Origin: a virus
Taxonomy: Duplodnaviria; Heunggongvirae; Uroviricota; Caudoviricetes
Virus record (IMG/VR): IMGVR_UViG_2700989171_000006
Direction: 5' to 3' (one strand)
Length of the DNA stretch: 4,874 nucleotides
The notes under the pieces are model-generated. The model did not search any database, was not told the DNA's origin, and saw only the letters and a list, made by a program, of their open reading frames with translations. Made by a program: the position numbers and the translations under genes. Shown piece by piece: positions 1 through 4,874 of the stretch; the stretch's first letter is position 1; each line of letters opens with the position of its first letter.

Positions 1-31
1 AGCGGGCTTGTAATGGGTTAAGTGATAACAG

Positions 32-792
32 ATGTCTGGAAATATAGGGGCAAATCCAGCAATCATCAAACTGTCTTGGATAGAAGCCGCAGTGGATGCG
101 CACAAAACGTTAAATTTCGAACCCAGTGGAAGAAAGCGTATTGGCTTTGACGTGGCTGACAGTGGTACAGATAAGTGCGCTAACGTTTACCGTCACGGAT
201 CCGTTGTTTTCTGGGCCGACGAATGGAAGGCCAAAGAAGATGAATTACTGAAGAGCTGCCAGCGTACTTATCAGGCGGCGCTGGAGCGTGAAGCAGATAT
301 TGTTTACGACTCTATCGGTGTTGGTGCGTCTGCCGGTGCTAAATTCTCTGAAATTAACGCTGACCGGAAGAGCGAGAACGCATACGCGCGACGTGTGAAT
401 TACCAGAGGTTTAACGCCGGTGCTGGTGTGCATGAGCCAGATGACGAGTACAACGGCATCCCCAACAAAGACTTTTTCGCAAATCTTAAGGCTCAGGCAT
501 GGTGGCTGACCGTTTCAGAAATACGTTTAACGCCATTAACAACGGAGAACAGTATCCTGTGGATGAGCTGATCAGCATAGATTCTCGTTGTCCGTTGCTT
601 GAAAAGCTGAAACTGGAACTGACAACACCTCATCGTGATTTCGACCGTAACGGACGTGTGATGGTCGAAAGTAAAAAAGACCTCGCAAAACGCGAGATAC
701 CGTCACCAAACGTTGCTGATGCATTCATTATGGCCTTCGCGCCAATCGATACATCGCTGGATATCTGGGAACAGCTGGGGAGACAGGCCTGA
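32..792 (+). CDS. Terminase large subunit, C-terminal nuclease domain; reading frame interrupted (ORF pieces 32..571 and 499..792), so possible pseudogene or indel error
   Basis: The frame of 32..571 encodes motifs typical of the RNase-H-like nuclease domain of large terminases (RIGFDVADSGTDKCA, ADIVYDSIGVGA). The frame of 499..792 encodes the conserved C-terminal acidic motif (SPNVADAFIMAF) and ends in a TGATG stop/start overlap with the next gene. The two pieces are in different frames, with the switch needed between about 490 and 571. Stop codons occur in all three + frames within 11..47, so an upstream ATPase domain cannot be continuous with this ORF as sequenced. Confidence 0.75.
777..782 (+). 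promoter_or_regulatory. Shine-Dalgarno-like GGGGAG for the portal gene
   Basis: GGGGAG lies 9 nt upstream of ATG 792..794. Confidence 0.5.
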
Positions 793-2258
793 TGGCACGA
801 AACAAACAAGCCCTGCGGCGAACTGTGCAGGCCACAGCTGATGGTTATGAGAATTTTATTGCCCGAGTAGGGATGCAGACACCTAACCAGCACTCAGCAT
901 CCACCTACCGGGCTAATTTCACCAGTCGTAACCGCATGCTGGTGGAATGGTCCTATCGTTCATCCTGGATCATCGGCGAAGCAGTCGATGCTATCCCGGA
1001 TGATATGACCCGCAAAGGCATTCGCATCACTTCGGAAATTGATGCAAAAGATCGTGGCATTCTCGAATCACAACTGGATGAGTTGCAAATCTGGGATGCG
1101 CTGAATGACGTGCTGAAATGGTCGCGCCTCTACGGCGGCGCGGTGGGTTTCATCATGATTGAGGGGCAGGCACCAATGACCCCGCTGCGACCCGAAACCA
1201 TCGGTAAGGGCAAGTTTAAGGGGATTCTCCCGCTCGACCGCTGGATGGTCGACCCGGCACTGACCCGCCGCATTAAAGATATGGGGCCGGACCTGGGTAA
1301 ACCTGAGTTTTACGATGTGGTGACCACAGCAACGGGAATTCCTGCCTGGCGCATTCATCACAGTCGCCTGATTCGCTTTGATGGCGTCACGTTGCCATTT
1401 CAGCAGAAGATGACCGAGAACGAATGGGGAATGTCGGTTGTAGAGCGTATCTGGGATCGTCTTACCGCGTTCGACAGCGCTACTGTCGGCGCGGCGCAGC
1501 TGGTCTACAAGGCGCATTTGCGTACCTACAGCGTGGAGAAGCTACGCGAGCTTATCGCACTTGGTGGTCCTGCGTATGAAGCGTTGCTGAAGAATATCGA
1601 CCTGATTCGACAGTTCCAGAGTAATGAAGGCATGACGCTCATGGACTCGCGGGATAAGTTTGAAACCCATCAGTACAGCTTCAGTGGTCTGGATGACATC
1701 CTTTCGCAGTTTGCAGAACAGATTAGTGGCGCTGTTGGTATCCCACTGGTGCGGTTGTTCGGACAGTCCCCGAAAGGATTTTCTACCGGTGATGCAGACC
1801 TTGCCAACTATTACGATCGCATCAGTTCGTTGCAGGAGAGGCGTTTACGTCTTCCGGTGCGGCGGATACTGGACATCATGCATCGTTCGGAACTTGGCAA
1901 GCCGCTGCCGGACGATTTCACGTTTGAGTTTAACCCGCTCTGGCAAATGTCTGATGTCGATCGCTCAACGGTGGCGTTAAACACCACCAACGCAATCAGT
2001 ACGGCGATGGGTGATGGTCTGATGACACTGAAAGCCGCTATGACTGATTTGCGAGAAAATTCTGACGTAACCGGCATAGGGGCATCCATTACCAACGAGG
2101 ACATCGAGAATGCCGAAGATGAAGCGCCGCCCGGCATCGGCGAACCTGATGACGAACCGCAGGAGCCGTCAGGCGGAAATCCGGTATCGAACCAGCCTAC
2201 GCAGGATAGCGAGGGCGGTCGGAGACATCGTAAATGGTCGCTACGATGGTTCAAATGA
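792..2258 (+). CDS. Phage portal protein (DUF1073-like family as recalled)
   Basis: 488-aa ORF with GGGGAG 9 nt upstream. Its ATG overlaps the terminase stop (TGATG at 790..794). It sits in the canonical slot between terminase and the MuF-like gene. Size and sequence character fit portal proteins, and it ends in an acidic low-complexity tail (EDEAPPGIGEPDDEPQEPSGG...). The last ~50 codons overlap the next gene. Confidence 0.8.
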   Translation: MARNKQALRRTVQATADGYENFIARVGMQTPNQHSASTYRANFTSRNRMLVEWSYRSSWIIGEAVDAIPDDMTRKGIRITSEIDAKDRGILESQLDELQIWDALNDVLKWSRLYGGAVGFIMIEGQAPMTPLRPETIGKGKFKGILPLDRWMVDPALTRRIKDMGPDLGKPEFYDVVTTATGIPAWRIHHSRLIRFDGVTLPFQQKMTENEWGMSVVERIWDRLTAFDSATVGAAQLVYKAHLRTYSVEKLRELIALGGPAYEALLKNIDLIRQFQSNEGMTLMDSRDKFETHQYSFSGLDDILSQFAEQISGAVGIPLVRLFGQSPKGFSTGDADLANYYDRISSLQERRLRLPVRRILDIMHRSELGKPLPDDFTFEFNPLWQMSDVDRSTVALNTTNAISTAMGDGLMTLKAAMTDLRENSDVTGIGASITNEDIENAEDEAPPGIGEPDDEPQEPSGGNPVSNQPTQDSEGGRRHRKWSLRWFK

Positions 2259-2892
2259 CAGTATCACGGAAATTATTGCGGCGCTGGAGCGTTACAGTGA
2301 AATCATCACCCCCTGGGCGACAAAGGTCGCGGAAAACTTTACTGCGGACCTAACCCGGCAGAACGAGAAAGTTTGGCGGCAACACAGCAAGAACATCAGT
2401 CGCGAGCTCCGCAATCTTGTGGAAAGCGCTCCTGTGGGCCAGGTGATGCAATCCATCATCGCCGAACAGGTCAAGTACATCAAATCTCTGCCTCTCGAGG
2501 CCGCAGACAGGGTGTACGACATCCAGAACAAAGCGATAGAGGCTGTTGTCACCGGTGGTCGGGCGGAGCAGTTTGCTAAAGAGATTGCATCTACCGGCGA
2601 TGTTGCTAAGTCTAGGGCCGATCTGATTGCCCGAACGGAACTGGGAAGAGCAACGGGCGCGCTGGATATGGCCCGAGCGATAGCTATTGGCTCGGATGGT
2701 TATATTTGGCGTACAGCCGATGATGGCGATGTCCGAGATTCCCACGATCACATGAAAGGTAAATTCGTCCGCTGGGATTCACCTCCAACTTTGGACGGCA
2801 TGACCGGCCACGCGGGCGAGCTGCCAAACTGCCGCTGCTATAAAGAGATCGTGTTTGTTCGCGTTCCATTCGCAATGAAAAGGGCAGCATAA
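2110..2892 (+). CDS. Head morphogenesis / minor head protein, MuF (SPP1 gp7) family
   Basis: 260-aa ORF whose C-terminal half carries MuF-type motifs (IARTELGRATG, WRTADDGDVRDSHDHMKGKF, NCRCY). GAGG lies 9 nt upstream of ATG 2110. The start is uncertain (ATG at 2110, 2119 or 2149), and every candidate lies inside the portal ORF. Confidence 0.8.
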   Translation: MPKMKRRPASANLMTNRRSRQAEIRYRTSLRRIARAVGDIVNGRYDGSNDSITEIIAALERYSEIITPWATKVAENFTADLTRQNEKVWRQHSKNISRELRNLVESAPVGQVMQSIIAEQVKYIKSLPLEAADRVYDIQNKAIEAVVTGGRAEQFAKEIASTGDVAKSRADLIARTELGRATGALDMARAIAIGSDGYIWRTADDGDVRDSHDHMKGKFVRWDSPPTLDGMTGHAGELPNCRCYKEIVFVRVPFAMKRAA

Positions 2893-2895
2893 CCC

Positions 2896-4103
2896 ATGAA
2901 ATACTTTTTTGAGACCAGGCTCGGGGAAACCCGATACCGCCTGGCTGACGGCTCGTTGCTGTGCAAAGACGTGCCGATAGGACGAACAGGTAAGCAGCTC
3001 TATGGTGCTGATGACCTGCCAAAACTGAAACCCGATAAGTTCGTTGAAATAGTCGTCACGCGTTCTCCTGAGCAGGTATTCCATCCGGCCACGCTTGCCT
3101 CATTCGAAGGGATGAGCATCACGATCCTGCATCCTGAAGATGAAAACGGGAATGTGCGGCTGGTAAATCCCGAGAACTGGAAAGTGCTTGCTGTCGGGCA
3201 CCTCCAGAATGTCCGGCGCGGGACGGGTGAGCAGTCTGATTTGATGCTGGCTGACCTTATCGTCAAAGACGAAAGCGCCATTCAGCTTATCGAAGATGGC
3301 CTGCGCGAAGTGTCGTGCGGCTATGACGCGGAGTACGAGCAGACCGAGCCAGGTAAAGCCGAGCAGGTCGATATTACCGGAAACCATGTGGCTCTTGTCC
3401 CTAAAGGCAGAGCCGGAAATCGTTGTGCAATTGGAGACAGAGACACAATGGCAAATCAAAAGAAAAACTGGTGGAACCGCATGCGTGCGGCCATCAAGAC
3501 AGGAGATGCCGACACCATGAACGAACTGGTGGAGTCGGCTCCCGCATCGGTTACAGGAGATGAGGGGGATTTGCCGCAGGGCGTTAATCTCAACATCAAC
3601 CTGTCCCCGCAGCAACCACTACCGGACAAAGCACCAGAGATGGGCGGAGATCCAACCGGCGACAGTGATGATGACCTCAAAACATTACTGAAAGCCCTGC
3701 TGGCTAAGCTGGAAAGAAATGCCACGGGCGATAACGATAATAAGCCTGACGATAATCCGACCGGTGACGGCGAGGACGATGAAGAGGAAACCACGATTAC
3801 TGGTGACTCAGCCTGGCGTGCCGAAGTTATCGTTCCGGGTATCGATCTGAGCCGTAAGATGAAACCGACCGCGTTCAAACGCGAGGTTCTGGCTTCCGCT
3901 GACAAAACGCTGGTTCGCCAGATAGTCGGTGATGCGGATATCCGCAAATTACCGAAACAATCGGTCGACATGGCGTTTAATGCCGTGTCTGAGGTTGCCA
4001 AAGGGCGAAACACCCGCGCCACCACCGGCGATGCACAGCGCCTAAACATGGGCATGACCAGTATCGCTTCCCTGAACAAACAAAACGCTGAATTCTGGGC
4101 AAA
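2896..4103 (+). CDS. Large acidic head-assembly protein with a DUF2213-like N-terminal domain; putative prohead protease/scaffold; 3' end hidden by the N-run
   Basis: ATG 2896 lies 3 nt after the MuF stop, and 402 codons are readable before the N-run. The N-terminal ~180 aa resemble DUF2213 phage proteins as recalled. The C-terminal half is acidic and low-complexity with a helical-looking stretch (LKTLLKALLAKLERN). The gene occupies the protease/scaffold slot between the MuF and capsid genes. The ORF-track extension through X residues to the stop at 4240..4242 cannot be interpreted. Confidence 0.7.
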
Positions 4104-4222
4104 NNNNNNNNNNNNNNNNNNNNNNNNNNNNNNNNNNNNNNNNNNNNNNNNNNNNNNNNNNNNNNNNNNNNNNNNNNNNNNNNNNNNNNNNNNNNNNNNN
4201 NNNNNNNNNNNNNNNNNNNNNN
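4104..4222. other. Run of 119 N (masked or unresolved sequence)
   Basis: Directly visible: the N characters start at 4104 and end at 4222. Confidence 0.99.
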
Positions 4223-4529
4223 CTCTCGCCCGCAGGACTTAACCGTCGAACCGGTGGTCCTTAAATCCGATAACGCCTTCGCTGCCTATGGCCTGGCTGG
4301 TAAATACGATGATGACGGTTTTTTCGTGCCGCTGGCAGATGGTGATACCGCAGACAAGGTGAAGGGGATCTACGTGCGCCCTTATCCGACCACGTCGCAG
4401 CCGGACATGGTTCGCCAGGTGGGAACAGGCAAGAACTTCCCGGGCGACGCCATGAAGCGTGGCTACGTGACCGTTAATCTCGGTTCTGATTTTGATGCCA
4501 GCACTATCAAAAAAGGCGATCTCCACTGA
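4223..4529 (+). CDS. Small head-module protein (possible decoration/cement-type protein), 5' end hidden by the N-run
   Basis: The frame is open from the first unmasked base to TGA 4527..4529, with coding-like codon usage (CTG, CCG, GGC, GTG rich). GTG 4254 has no convincing Shine-Dalgarno, so the start is probably inside the masked region. Gly/Asp-rich composition. Location immediately upstream of the capsid gene. The functional label is a guess. Confidence 0.55.
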
Positions 4530-4562
4530 TGAATCCATCAAAGTGCCTCTGGGTGGATTCAT
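4529..4562 (+). other. Inverted repeat / potential RNA hairpin (9-bp stem ATGAATCCA / TGGATTCAT, extendable to 11 bp with one G-U pair)
   Basis: Arms 4529..4537 and 4554..4562 are exact reverse complements. The stem includes the last base of the upstream TGA stop and the first two bases of ATG 4561. No T-run follows. Confidence 0.4.
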
Positions 4563-4662
4563 GTCCACGTCAGTCAGTGGCAAAAACGTGGTGCTGACCA
4601 ACGCTGAATTCACAGGTGCCGGTGATGCTGACGGCAATGCAGAAATTTCCTGGAAGATTTAA
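4561..4662 (+). CDS. 33-codon ORF (MSTSVSGKNVVLTNAEFTGAGDADGNAEISWKI), either a small independent gene or the frameshifted C-terminus of the preceding protein
   Basis: ATG 4561 to TAA 4660..4662. Codon usage is coding-like. The same frame is open back to 4471 and contains an alternative ATG at 4495. The track omits it because of its short length. Confidence 0.3.
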   Translation: MSTSVSGKNVVLTNAEFTGAGDADGNAEISWKI

Positions 4663-4673: not shown

Positions 4674-4874
4674 ATGATTACTTTTGATCAGGCAACCGTT
4701 GACAGCTCTGGTGCCTTTCTCATCGGGGAGCTGGAGAGACTCGACCAGACGCTGAACCTGCCACTGGTGGGGTACACCTGGAGCCGCGATATTCAACTGC
4801 GTGAAGACGCCTCCATCGCAGATGACATTTCCAGCTGGACGAATACCAGCTTCGCCGCTGCGGGTACTGGCGCA
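4674..4874 (+). CDS. Probable major capsid protein, N-terminal 67 codons (runs off the window end)
   Basis: ATG 4674 with a strong SD. The ORF is open to the window end. The N-terminus MITFDQATVDSSGAFLIGELERLDQTLNLPLV... resembles the N-termini of major capsid proteins that follow DUF2213-type genes, as recalled. It sits in the expected slot after the scaffold and small-protein genes. Confidence 0.55.
   Translation, partial: MITFDQATVDSSGAFLIGELERLDQTLNLPLVGYTWSRDIQLREDASIADDISSWTNTSFAAAGTGA

What the first reader, a model, noticed from the sequence alone, without database searches (positions are those of the whole stretch)
490..571. Terminase nuclease domain split between two reading frames
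The N-terminal nuclease motifs are in the frame of 32..571, which ends ...KAQAWWL plus a 20-codon tail that looks like out-of-frame read-through. The conserved C-terminal motif (SPNVADAFIMAF) is in the frame of 499..792. Both frames are open only across about 490..571, so the switch must lie there. A single added base would restore one ORF, for example GG -> GGG at 503..505. This is either a true inactivating frameshift (decaying prophage), a homopolymer sequencing error, or, less likely, recoding.
Basis: partly seen in the sequence, partly recalled or inferred. Interest (0 to 1): 0.5.

Follow-up and report, generated by a model that had tools for sequence, protein, structure and literature searches.

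The report
Broken terminase gene in Shigella prophage
The phage DNA-packaging (terminase) gene here is a dead remnant in a decayed Shigella flexneri prophage, cut by an IS2 insertion and frameshifted by loss of one copy of a 7-base tandem repeat; this is ordinary genome decay, not a sequencing error or a recoding signal.

Summary
Two frames overlap only at 490..571. The terminase nuclease domain starts in the frame of 32..571 and finishes in the frame of 499..792.

The cause is not a one-base or homopolymer change. One copy of a 7-bp tandem repeat is missing. Intact alleles read GGCA-TGGTGGC-TGGTGGC-TGACC; the window reads GGCA-TGGTGGC-TGACC at 497..511. All 41 complete E. coli genomes carrying this gene have both copies in a single 467-aa ORF. 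Re-inserting TGGTGGC gives a 246-aa reading frame 100% identical to residues 222-467 of that ortholog.

The lesion is real and fixed. The exact 179-aa chimeric ORF occurs in 1402 index blocks of public assemblies, 32 of them with contigs over 1 Mb, and one source names it for S. flexneri 2a 301. The same deletion is present in genomes I take to be S. dysenteriae Sd197-type, which carry a different IS insertion.

The gene is also cut by IS2. Window 1..58 is the IS2 right end and 59..63 is the GCAAT target duplication, so the ATG at 32 is IS2 sequence. There is no slippery heptamer and no Rfam hit.

A 17-bp deletion also breaks the nearby cement-protein gene. Verdict: an ordinary pseudogene in a defective prophage.

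The parts
1..58 (+). Right end of insertion sequence IS2, inserted into the large terminase gene. It contains the ATG at 32 and the first nine codons of ORF 32..571.
   Evidence: Window 1..58-60 matches IS2 copies at 100% identity. This accounts for the thousands of short matching places in E. coli genomes. Phage records annotate the same stretch as IS2. In S. flexneri SFBU1023 (L003) the complete IS2 precedes this junction, and the terL 5' part lies upstream of it. Gene calls in L014-L023 show the order Terminase_3 ORF, then IS2 transposase, then this ORF.
59..63 (+). GCAAT, the 5-bp target-site duplication of the IS2 insertion.
   Evidence: L003 reads ...GCGGCAAT|TAGACTGG (IS2 left end) and ...CAAATCCA|GCAATCATC (right end). 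The uninterrupted allele reads GCGGCAATCATC.
59..508 (+). 5' part of the terL nuclease domain, in the frame of 32..571. It corresponds to residues 222-371 of the intact 467-aa ortholog. It holds the first two active-site Asp codons, at 149-151 and 308-310.
   Evidence: DNA alignment to E. coli VL40 and FDAARGOS_943. Restored translation identical to VL40 residues 222-467. Alignment of the ortholog to Sf6 gp2, PDB 4IDH, E=2.5e-79. Sf6 triad D244/D296/D444 (PMC4678813). Codon coordinates.
500..508 (+). Deletion scar: a single TGGTGGC plus TG where intact alleles have TGGTGGC-TGGTGGC-TG. This is the point where the reading frame switches.
   Evidence: 7-column gap against two intact alleles. All 41 complete E. 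coli genomes with this gene span 268 bases for the query's 261. Tandem Repeats Finder reports period 7, 2.3 copies, 100% match in the intact allele. Re-inserting the unit restores one ORF.
509..571 (+). Out-of-frame tail of 20 codons (TVSEIRLTPLTTENSILWMS) plus the TGA stop at 569-571.
   Evidence: Translation. This tail is absent from the ortholog, which reads VADRFRNTF... at this point.
502..792 (+). 3' part of the terL nuclease domain, in the frame of 499..792. It corresponds to ortholog residues 372-467. It holds the codons for the Lys (673-675), Asn (709-711) and third Asp (718-720) of the active site. Stop at 790-792.

Best explanation
The window is the head-gene module of a defective prophage of Shigella flexneri. 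Its large-terminase gene (PBSX family, related to Sf6 gp2) is a pseudogene carrying two independent lesions.

1. A copy of IS2 is inserted at the start of the nuclease domain, at window 58/59, with a 5-bp GCAAT duplication. This separates the ATPase half of the gene from the nuclease half.

2. One unit of a perfect two-copy 7-bp tandem repeat (TGGTGGC-TGGTGGC) has been lost. The most likely mechanism is slipped-strand mispairing during replication; that step is inferred, not shown. Loss of 7 bp shifts the frame after Leu371. Translation from the upstream frame therefore runs 20 wrong codons and stops at 569-571.

The remaining 96 codons are stranded in another frame. They encode the Lys, Asn and third Asp that complete the two-metal RNase H-like active site. 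No functional terminase can be made from this gene. The frameshift is a fixed, inherited mutation of the lineage, not an error and not a recoding signal.
For: Nature of the lesion:
- One search shows a 7-bp gap against intact alleles with otherwise near-identical sequence.
- Searches show that 41 of 41 complete E. coli genomes keep both repeat copies, and that the intact allele is a perfect 7-bp x 2.3 repeat.
- One search shows that re-inserting TGGTGGC gives one ORF 100% identical to residues 222-467 of the VL40 terminase.

Identity of the gene:
- the intact ortholog scores 143.6 bits against TIGR01547 (cutoff 105.05), hits Pfam Terminase_3, and hits Terminase_3C weakly. The two window fragments hit nothing.
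- the ortholog aligns without a gap across the repeat to Sf6 gp2. The Sf6 active site is D244/D296/D444 plus N441 and K428, and its equivalents are split between the two window frames.

The lesion is real and fixed:
- the exact 179-aa IS2-terL-tail ORF is named from S. flexneri 2a 301. It is seen on at least 1000 contigs and in 1402 index blocks, 32 of them with contigs over 1 Mb.
- every S. flexneri-type locus fetched carries both the deletion and the same IS2 junction.
- the loci that include CP000034.1 carry the same deletion but a different IS insertion, between window 184 and 198. I take these to be S. dysenteriae.

The prophage is decayed overall:
- a 17-bp deletion breaks the cement-protein gene.
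- the surroundings are full of IS elements, and no tail genes follow the capsid gene.
Against: Nothing found here contradicts this explanation. Three points remain unproven:
- Slipped-strand mispairing is inferred from the repeat structure, not observed.
- The order of the two lesions is inferred only from the deletion being shared with IS-different S. dysenteriae copies. That sharing could instead reflect recurrence.
- No expression data were available, so I cannot say whether any fragment is translated.
Confidence: 0.95

Rival explanations
1. Sequencing or assembly error. The true genome would have an intact frame, and the missing bases would be an artefact of this draft assembly.
For: The window is from a draft-like sequence with a 119-N run at 4104-4222. 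Short indels are a common assembly artefact.
Against: The exact frameshifted 179-aa ORF is present in 1402 index blocks of public assemblies, including 32 with contigs over 1 Mb, and one source names it for S. flexneri 2a 301. Sixteen separately fetched long loci and five IMG/VR contigs carry the identical junction. The site has no homopolymer of 4 or more bases. A 7-bp loss is not a typical base-calling error.
Confidence: 0.01
2. Programmed -1 ribosomal frameshifting (recoding) joins the two frames into one nuclease domain.
For: Going from the frame of 32..571 to the frame of 499..792 needs a -1 shift. A moderately stable hairpin lies downstream, with z = -1.72 and 10 of 200 shuffles folding as well.
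Against: There is no X_XXY_YYZ slippery heptamer anywhere in the 490-568 overlap. The hairpin starts about 34 nt after the site and is not significant. No Rfam family matches. Forty-one of 41 E. coli orthologs encode the same protein in one frame with the 7 extra bases. The gene has also lost its ATPase half to IS2, so a recoded product would still not be a terminase.
Confidence: 0.01
3. This is a natural two-gene arrangement. The nuclease domain genuinely ends near ...AQAWWL, and a separate small protein is encoded downstream.
For: Gene callers annotate 97-aa or 77-aa downstream ORFs as separate proteins in many genomes.
Against: The solved homolog Sf6 gp2 and the E. coli orthologs are single chains that run through this point without a gap. 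The downstream ORF carries residues needed for the same active site. The split is explained exactly by a 7-bp loss.
Confidence: 0.01

Closest known systems
Large terminase gp2 of Shigella phage Sf6 (PDB 4IDH; nuclease domain 5C10/5C12)
   Same: The intact ortholog of the window gene aligns over residues 10-449 at E=2.5e-79. It has the same two-domain layout of an ATPase followed by an RNase H-like nuclease. The active-site residues are conserved: D244/D296/D444, N441 and K428 in Sf6 correspond to D252, D305, D444, N441 and K429 in the ortholog.
   Different: The window copy is not a contiguous gene. It is cut by IS2 at the domain boundary and frameshifted between the second and third catalytic Asp. 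It is a paralogous prophage gene, not Sf6 itself.
PBSX-family phage terminase large subunit (NCBIfam TIGR01547) of E. coli prophages, e.g. WP_490182046.1 in strain VL40
   Same: About 99.6% DNA identity across the whole head module. The protein is identical once the 7 bp are restored.
   Different: The E. coli copies are intact 467-aa ORFs. The window copy has the IS2 insertion and the 7-bp deletion. E. coli FDAARGOS_943 also has an IS2 in this gene, but at a different site and without the deletion.
IS-driven pseudogenisation and prophage decay in Shigella genomes (general phenomenon, from my own knowledge of Shigella genomics)
   Same: There are multiple IS copies in and around the prophage, small frameshifting deletions in structural genes, and loss of the tail module.
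   Different: Nothing distinguishes this case from the general pattern. The one particular is the repeat-unit loss, which also removes a Chi octamer.

Membership tests
PBSX-family large terminase (TIGR01547 / Pfam Terminase_3 + Terminase_3C) | The whole protein scores above the curated family cutoff. | tested here: not met
   The intact ortholog scores 143.6 bits against a cutoff of 105.05. Both window fragments, 179 aa and 97 aa, give no hit in NCBIfam or Pfam. The window holds remnants of a member, not a member.
PBSX-family large terminase (TIGR01547 / Pfam Terminase_3 + Terminase_3C) | An N-terminal ATPase domain contiguous with the nuclease domain. | tested here: not met
   The ATPase part (227-aa ORF, PF04466) lies upstream of a full IS2 in S. 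flexneri loci. It is outside the window and separated from the nuclease part.
PBSX-family large terminase (TIGR01547 / Pfam Terminase_3 + Terminase_3C) | An RNase H-like nuclease active site (Asp-Asp-Asp triad plus Asn and Lys, as in Sf6 gp2) in one polypeptide. | tested here: not met
   All five codons are still present: 149-151, 308-310, 673-675, 709-711 and 718-720. The first two and the last three are in different frames, separated by a stop at 569-571.
Programmed -1 ribosomal frameshift site | A slippery heptamer X_XXY_YYZ in the zero frame within the frame overlap. | tested here: not met
   None in 490-568. The only such heptamer in the ORF is AAATTTC, about 380 nt upstream of the overlap.
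Programmed -1 ribosomal frameshift site | A stimulatory RNA structure 5-9 nt downstream of the shift site. | tested here: not met
   The predicted hairpin starts about 34 nt downstream. z = -1.72, and 10 of 200 shuffles fold as well. No Rfam hit.
Programmed -1 ribosomal frameshift site | The two-frame arrangement is conserved among functional relatives. | tested here: not met
   Forty-one of 41 complete E. coli genomes and 33 IMG/VR contigs carry the one-frame allele. The two-frame allele was seen only in IS-broken Shigella copies.
IS2 insertion | An IS2 terminal sequence abutting the target, with a 5-bp direct target duplication. | tested here: met
   Window 1-58 matches IS2 ends at 100% identity. 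GCAAT is duplicated at both junctions in L003, compared with the uninterrupted allele.

The most novel reading that the evidence does not exclude
The TGGTGGC x2 repeat in this terminase gene forms a Chi octamer (GCTGGTGG) at its junction. It might be a recurrent deletion hot-spot that inactivated the gene independently in S. flexneri and S. dysenteriae prophages, and perhaps in the E. coli and Salmonella genomes where 77-aa C-terminal fragments are annotated. The alternative is that the deletion arose once and was inherited.
Probability: 0.15. Interest if true: 0.2.

Novelty: already known. Interest (0 to 1): 0.06.

Why it matters
It matters little beyond correct annotation. ORFs 32..571 and 499..792 should be annotated as fragments of one terminase pseudogene. 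The first is an IS2-terL chimera, so neither is a "bacteriophage protein" in its own right. The lesion could serve as a small lineage marker. The 7-bp deletion combined with the specific IS2 junction is diagnostic of the S. flexneri copy, and the deletion alone also marks the S. dysenteriae type 1 copy. It adds one more documented example of IS-driven prophage decay in Shigella.

Tried and rejected
- Pfam and NCBIfam scans of the two fragments alone gave no hits. The family assignment needed the intact ortholog.
- The phage genome collection had no close match to the terL part. It matched only the terL-end/portal stretch 735-1000 and the IS2 end.
- An Rfam scan of the whole window found nothing.
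- One of the six IMG/VR contigs with the deletion-junction 19-mer (L026) was a chance match inside an unrelated 424-aa ORF just downstream of a terminase-like ORF, which reads ...AQAWWLTG in frame. It was discarded.
- I tried to decide whether the deletion in S. flexneri and S. dysenteriae is shared by descent or recurrent, using SNPs in the shared 198-1107 stretch. That stretch has a single difference, 866 A/C, and no shared derived SNP, so the test was uninformative.
- My first attempt at restoring the repeat inserted the unit one base too early and gave three wrong residues. It was corrected.
- I ran no further search on the 77-aa Salmonella and E. coli fragments (P0019, P0026). The answer bears only on the recurrence question.

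Full report
**What is in the window.**

ORF listing and Pfam scans show a phage head module on the + strand:
- a terminase C-terminal region at 32..792;
- a portal gene at 792..2258 (Phage_portal_3, E=3e-106);
- a Mu F-like head-morphogenesis gene ending at 2892;
- a DUF2213 protein starting at 2896;
- a run of 119 N at 4104-4222;
- a cement-protein gene split into 4254..4529 and 4492..4662;
- the start of the next gene at 4675, which in related loci is called as the major capsid gene (PF09950).

An exact search for the junction sequence in one-genome-per-species contigs found a single record, Shigella flexneri SFBU1023. That record is collinear with the window and differs at 2 SNPs. Other loci (L015, L018), fetched through the ORF that sources name for S. 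flexneri, are identical over 1..3571.

**Checking the observation.**

Stop-codon positions show the two frames open as follows:
- The frame of 32..571 is open from the stop at 26-28 up to the TGA at 569-571.
- The frame of 499..792 is open from the TAA at 487-489 to the TGA at 790-792.

The upstream frame ends ...KAQAWWL plus 20 unrelated codons. The downstream frame holds SPNVADAFIMAF.

**What the lesion is.**

Megablast against complete E. coli genomes found 41 genomes carrying this gene. In each, window 59..1000 (942 bases) spans 949 bases in the record. A 261-base query centred on the site spans 268 bases in all 41.

The alignment places the 7 extra bases at one spot. Intact alleles read GGCA TGGTGGC TGGTGGC TGACC. 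The window reads GGCA TGGTGGC TGACC, with the remaining unit at 500-506 followed by TG at 507-508. Tandem Repeats Finder calls the intact allele a perfect 7-bp repeat of 2.3 copies.

Re-inserting one TGGTGGC gives a single reading frame of 246 codons from position 59 to the stop. It is 100% identical to residues 222-467 of the VL40 terminase.

The overlap contains no homopolymer of four or more bases.

**Second lesion: IS2.**

Window 1..58 is 100% identical to the end of IS2. This explains the thousands of short matching places and the IS2-annotated matches. In L003 a complete IS2 lies between the terL 5' part (...GATGATGATGCGGCAAT) and window position 59 (GCAATCATC...). GCAAT is duplicated at both junctions, whereas the uninterrupted allele reads GCGGCAATCATC.

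Gene calls around the locus show the order: a 227-aa Terminase_3 ORF, then the IS2 transposase, then the 179-aa ORF. The ORF is a chimera that lacks the ATPase domain.

**Identity and functional consequence.**

The intact ortholog (467 aa) has these matches:
- TIGR01547, PBSX-family large terminase, at 143.6 bits against a cutoff of 105.05;
- Pfam Terminase_3, and weakly Terminase_3C;
- the solved large terminase gp2 of Shigella phage Sf6, over residues 10-449 at E=2.5e-79, with no gap across the repeat: AQAWWLVADRF against AQFYYALADRL.

The Sf6 nuclease active site is the triad D244/D296/D444 with N441 and K428 (PMC4678813). The chain in that alignment is 490 residues long. I subtracted a 20-residue tag, assumed because I remember native gp2 as 470 aa. 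With that offset the three Asp, the Asn and the Lys all fall on the published residue numbers.

Their equivalents in the window are:

| Sf6 residue | Window codon | Frame |
|---|---|---|
| D244 | 149-151 | upstream (32..571) |
| D296 | 308-310 | upstream (32..571) |
| K428 | 673-675 | downstream (499..792) |
| N441 | 709-711 | downstream (499..792) |
| D444 | 718-720 | downstream (499..792) |

No single product can carry a complete active site. The two fragments on their own hit no family model.

**Real mutation, not an error.**

The exact 179-aa sequence encodes both the IS2 junction and the frameshift tail. It is in the protein collection under names including [quoted passage not shown]. It was seen on at least 1000 contigs and is listed in 1402 index blocks, 32 of them with contigs over 1 Mb.

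All eight fetched loci of this type (L014-L021) and L003 carry the deletion and the same IS2 junction. Five IMG/VR prophage contigs do too, against 33 IMG/VR contigs with the intact allele.

**Same deletion in a second Shigella lineage.**

The 97-aa downstream ORF is also found in CP000034.1, CP006736.1 and related chromosomes. I recognise CP000034.1 as S. dysenteriae Sd197, and the Sd197 protein accession ABB60916.1 appears.

In those genomes terL runs uninterrupted through the S. flexneri IS2 site. It is instead broken between window 184 and 198 by two IS elements, and the portal gene is truncated by IS1. The 7-bp deletion is nevertheless identical.

This suggests the deletion predates the IS insertions. 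The shared stretch has only one SNP (866 A/C), which is private to S. flexneri. Common descent and independent slippage therefore cannot be told apart here.

**Recoding and other rivals.**

A -1 shift would be needed to join the frames. Several results argue against it:
- There is no X_XXY_YYZ heptamer in the overlap.
- No Rfam family matches.
- The nearest predicted hairpin begins about 34 nt downstream and is unremarkable, with z = -1.72.
- The functional relatives are all encoded in one frame.

A natural two-gene arrangement is excluded by the ungapped alignment to Sf6 gp2 and by the exact 7-bp explanation.

**Mechanism.**

The most likely mechanism is slipped-strand mispairing between the two perfect 7-bp units during replication, which removes one unit. 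This is inferred from the repeat structure, not shown. The result is a net -1 frame change and a premature stop.

The prophage is broadly decayed:
- a 17-bp deletion at about 4520 splits the cement-protein gene;
- the region carries multiple IS elements, a group II intron reverse transcriptase and a Mu-like transposase remnant;
- no tail genes follow the capsid gene.

**A curiosity.**

The junction of the two repeat units in the intact allele spells the Chi octamer GCTGGTGG, and the deletion destroys it. Another Chi remains at 938-945. I attach no function to this.

**Verdict.**

The feature is an ordinary, fixed pseudogene lesion in a defective Shigella prophage, and the split ORFs are already annotated in public genomes. 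It is of low interest.

Noticed in passing
window 4254-4662 (lesion at about 4520): The cement-protein gene (Pfam Phage_cement / XM1_gp53) is also frameshifted. A 17-bp stretch (TCCGGTATACGTTGTCG) present in E. coli FDAARGOS_943 is missing in the window and in S. flexneri SFBU1023. This splits the gene into 4254..4529 and 4492..4662. It is a second small deletion pseudogene in the same prophage.
   Followed up: partly
window 4104-4222: A run of 119 N replaces only 66 nt in S. flexneri SFBU1023. The missing stretch holds the stop of the DUF2213 gene and the start of the cement-protein gene. The listed 448-aa ORF 2896..4242 reads through the Ns and is an artefact; the real protein is 406 aa in related loci.
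   Followed up: partly
window 497-511, compared with L001 3438-3459: In intact alleles the junction of the two TGGTGGC units forms a Chi octamer (GCTGGTGG). The 7-bp deletion removes it. A second Chi on the same strand remains in the portal gene at 938-945.
   Followed up: partly
L004-L011 (CP000034.1 and related chromosomes), about locus 1084-3700 and 4614-5362: The copy I take to be S. dysenteriae has the same 7-bp deletion. Two IS elements are inserted between window-equivalent 184 and 198, and IS1 truncates the portal gene after about 106 codons, next to rlmC-ybjO-potI-like genes. Whether the deletion is shared by descent with S. flexneri or arose twice is unresolved.
   Followed up: partly
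L002 (E. coli FDAARGOS_943), locus 2727-4049: This E. coli strain also has an IS2 in the same terminase gene, but about 220 bp further upstream than in S. flexneri and without the 7-bp deletion. Its head-morphogenesis gene is annotated with an internal stop. This is an independent decay route of the same prophage type.
   Followed up: no
window 2110-2258: The Mu F-like head-morphogenesis ORF overlaps the 3' end of the portal gene in another frame by about 110-150 nt, depending on the start chosen. RefSeq annotates a 247-aa product. Other gene calls start much later and give 152 aa.
   Followed up: no
proteins P0019 and P0026: 77-aa C-terminal terminase fragments are annotated as separate genes on 46-56 kb contigs of Salmonella enterica and E. 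coli. They differ from the window sequence by one or two residues. This hints that the gene is disrupted upstream in other lineages too; the cause was not examined.
   Followed up: no
hit H18 (E. coli Z1323CEC0005): The ortholog of the portal gene (792..2258) is variously annotated as 'DUF1073 domain-containing protein', 'phage portal protein', and in one genome as 'anti-CBASS protein Acb1 family protein'. This is an annotation inconsistency in RefSeq.
   Followed up: no
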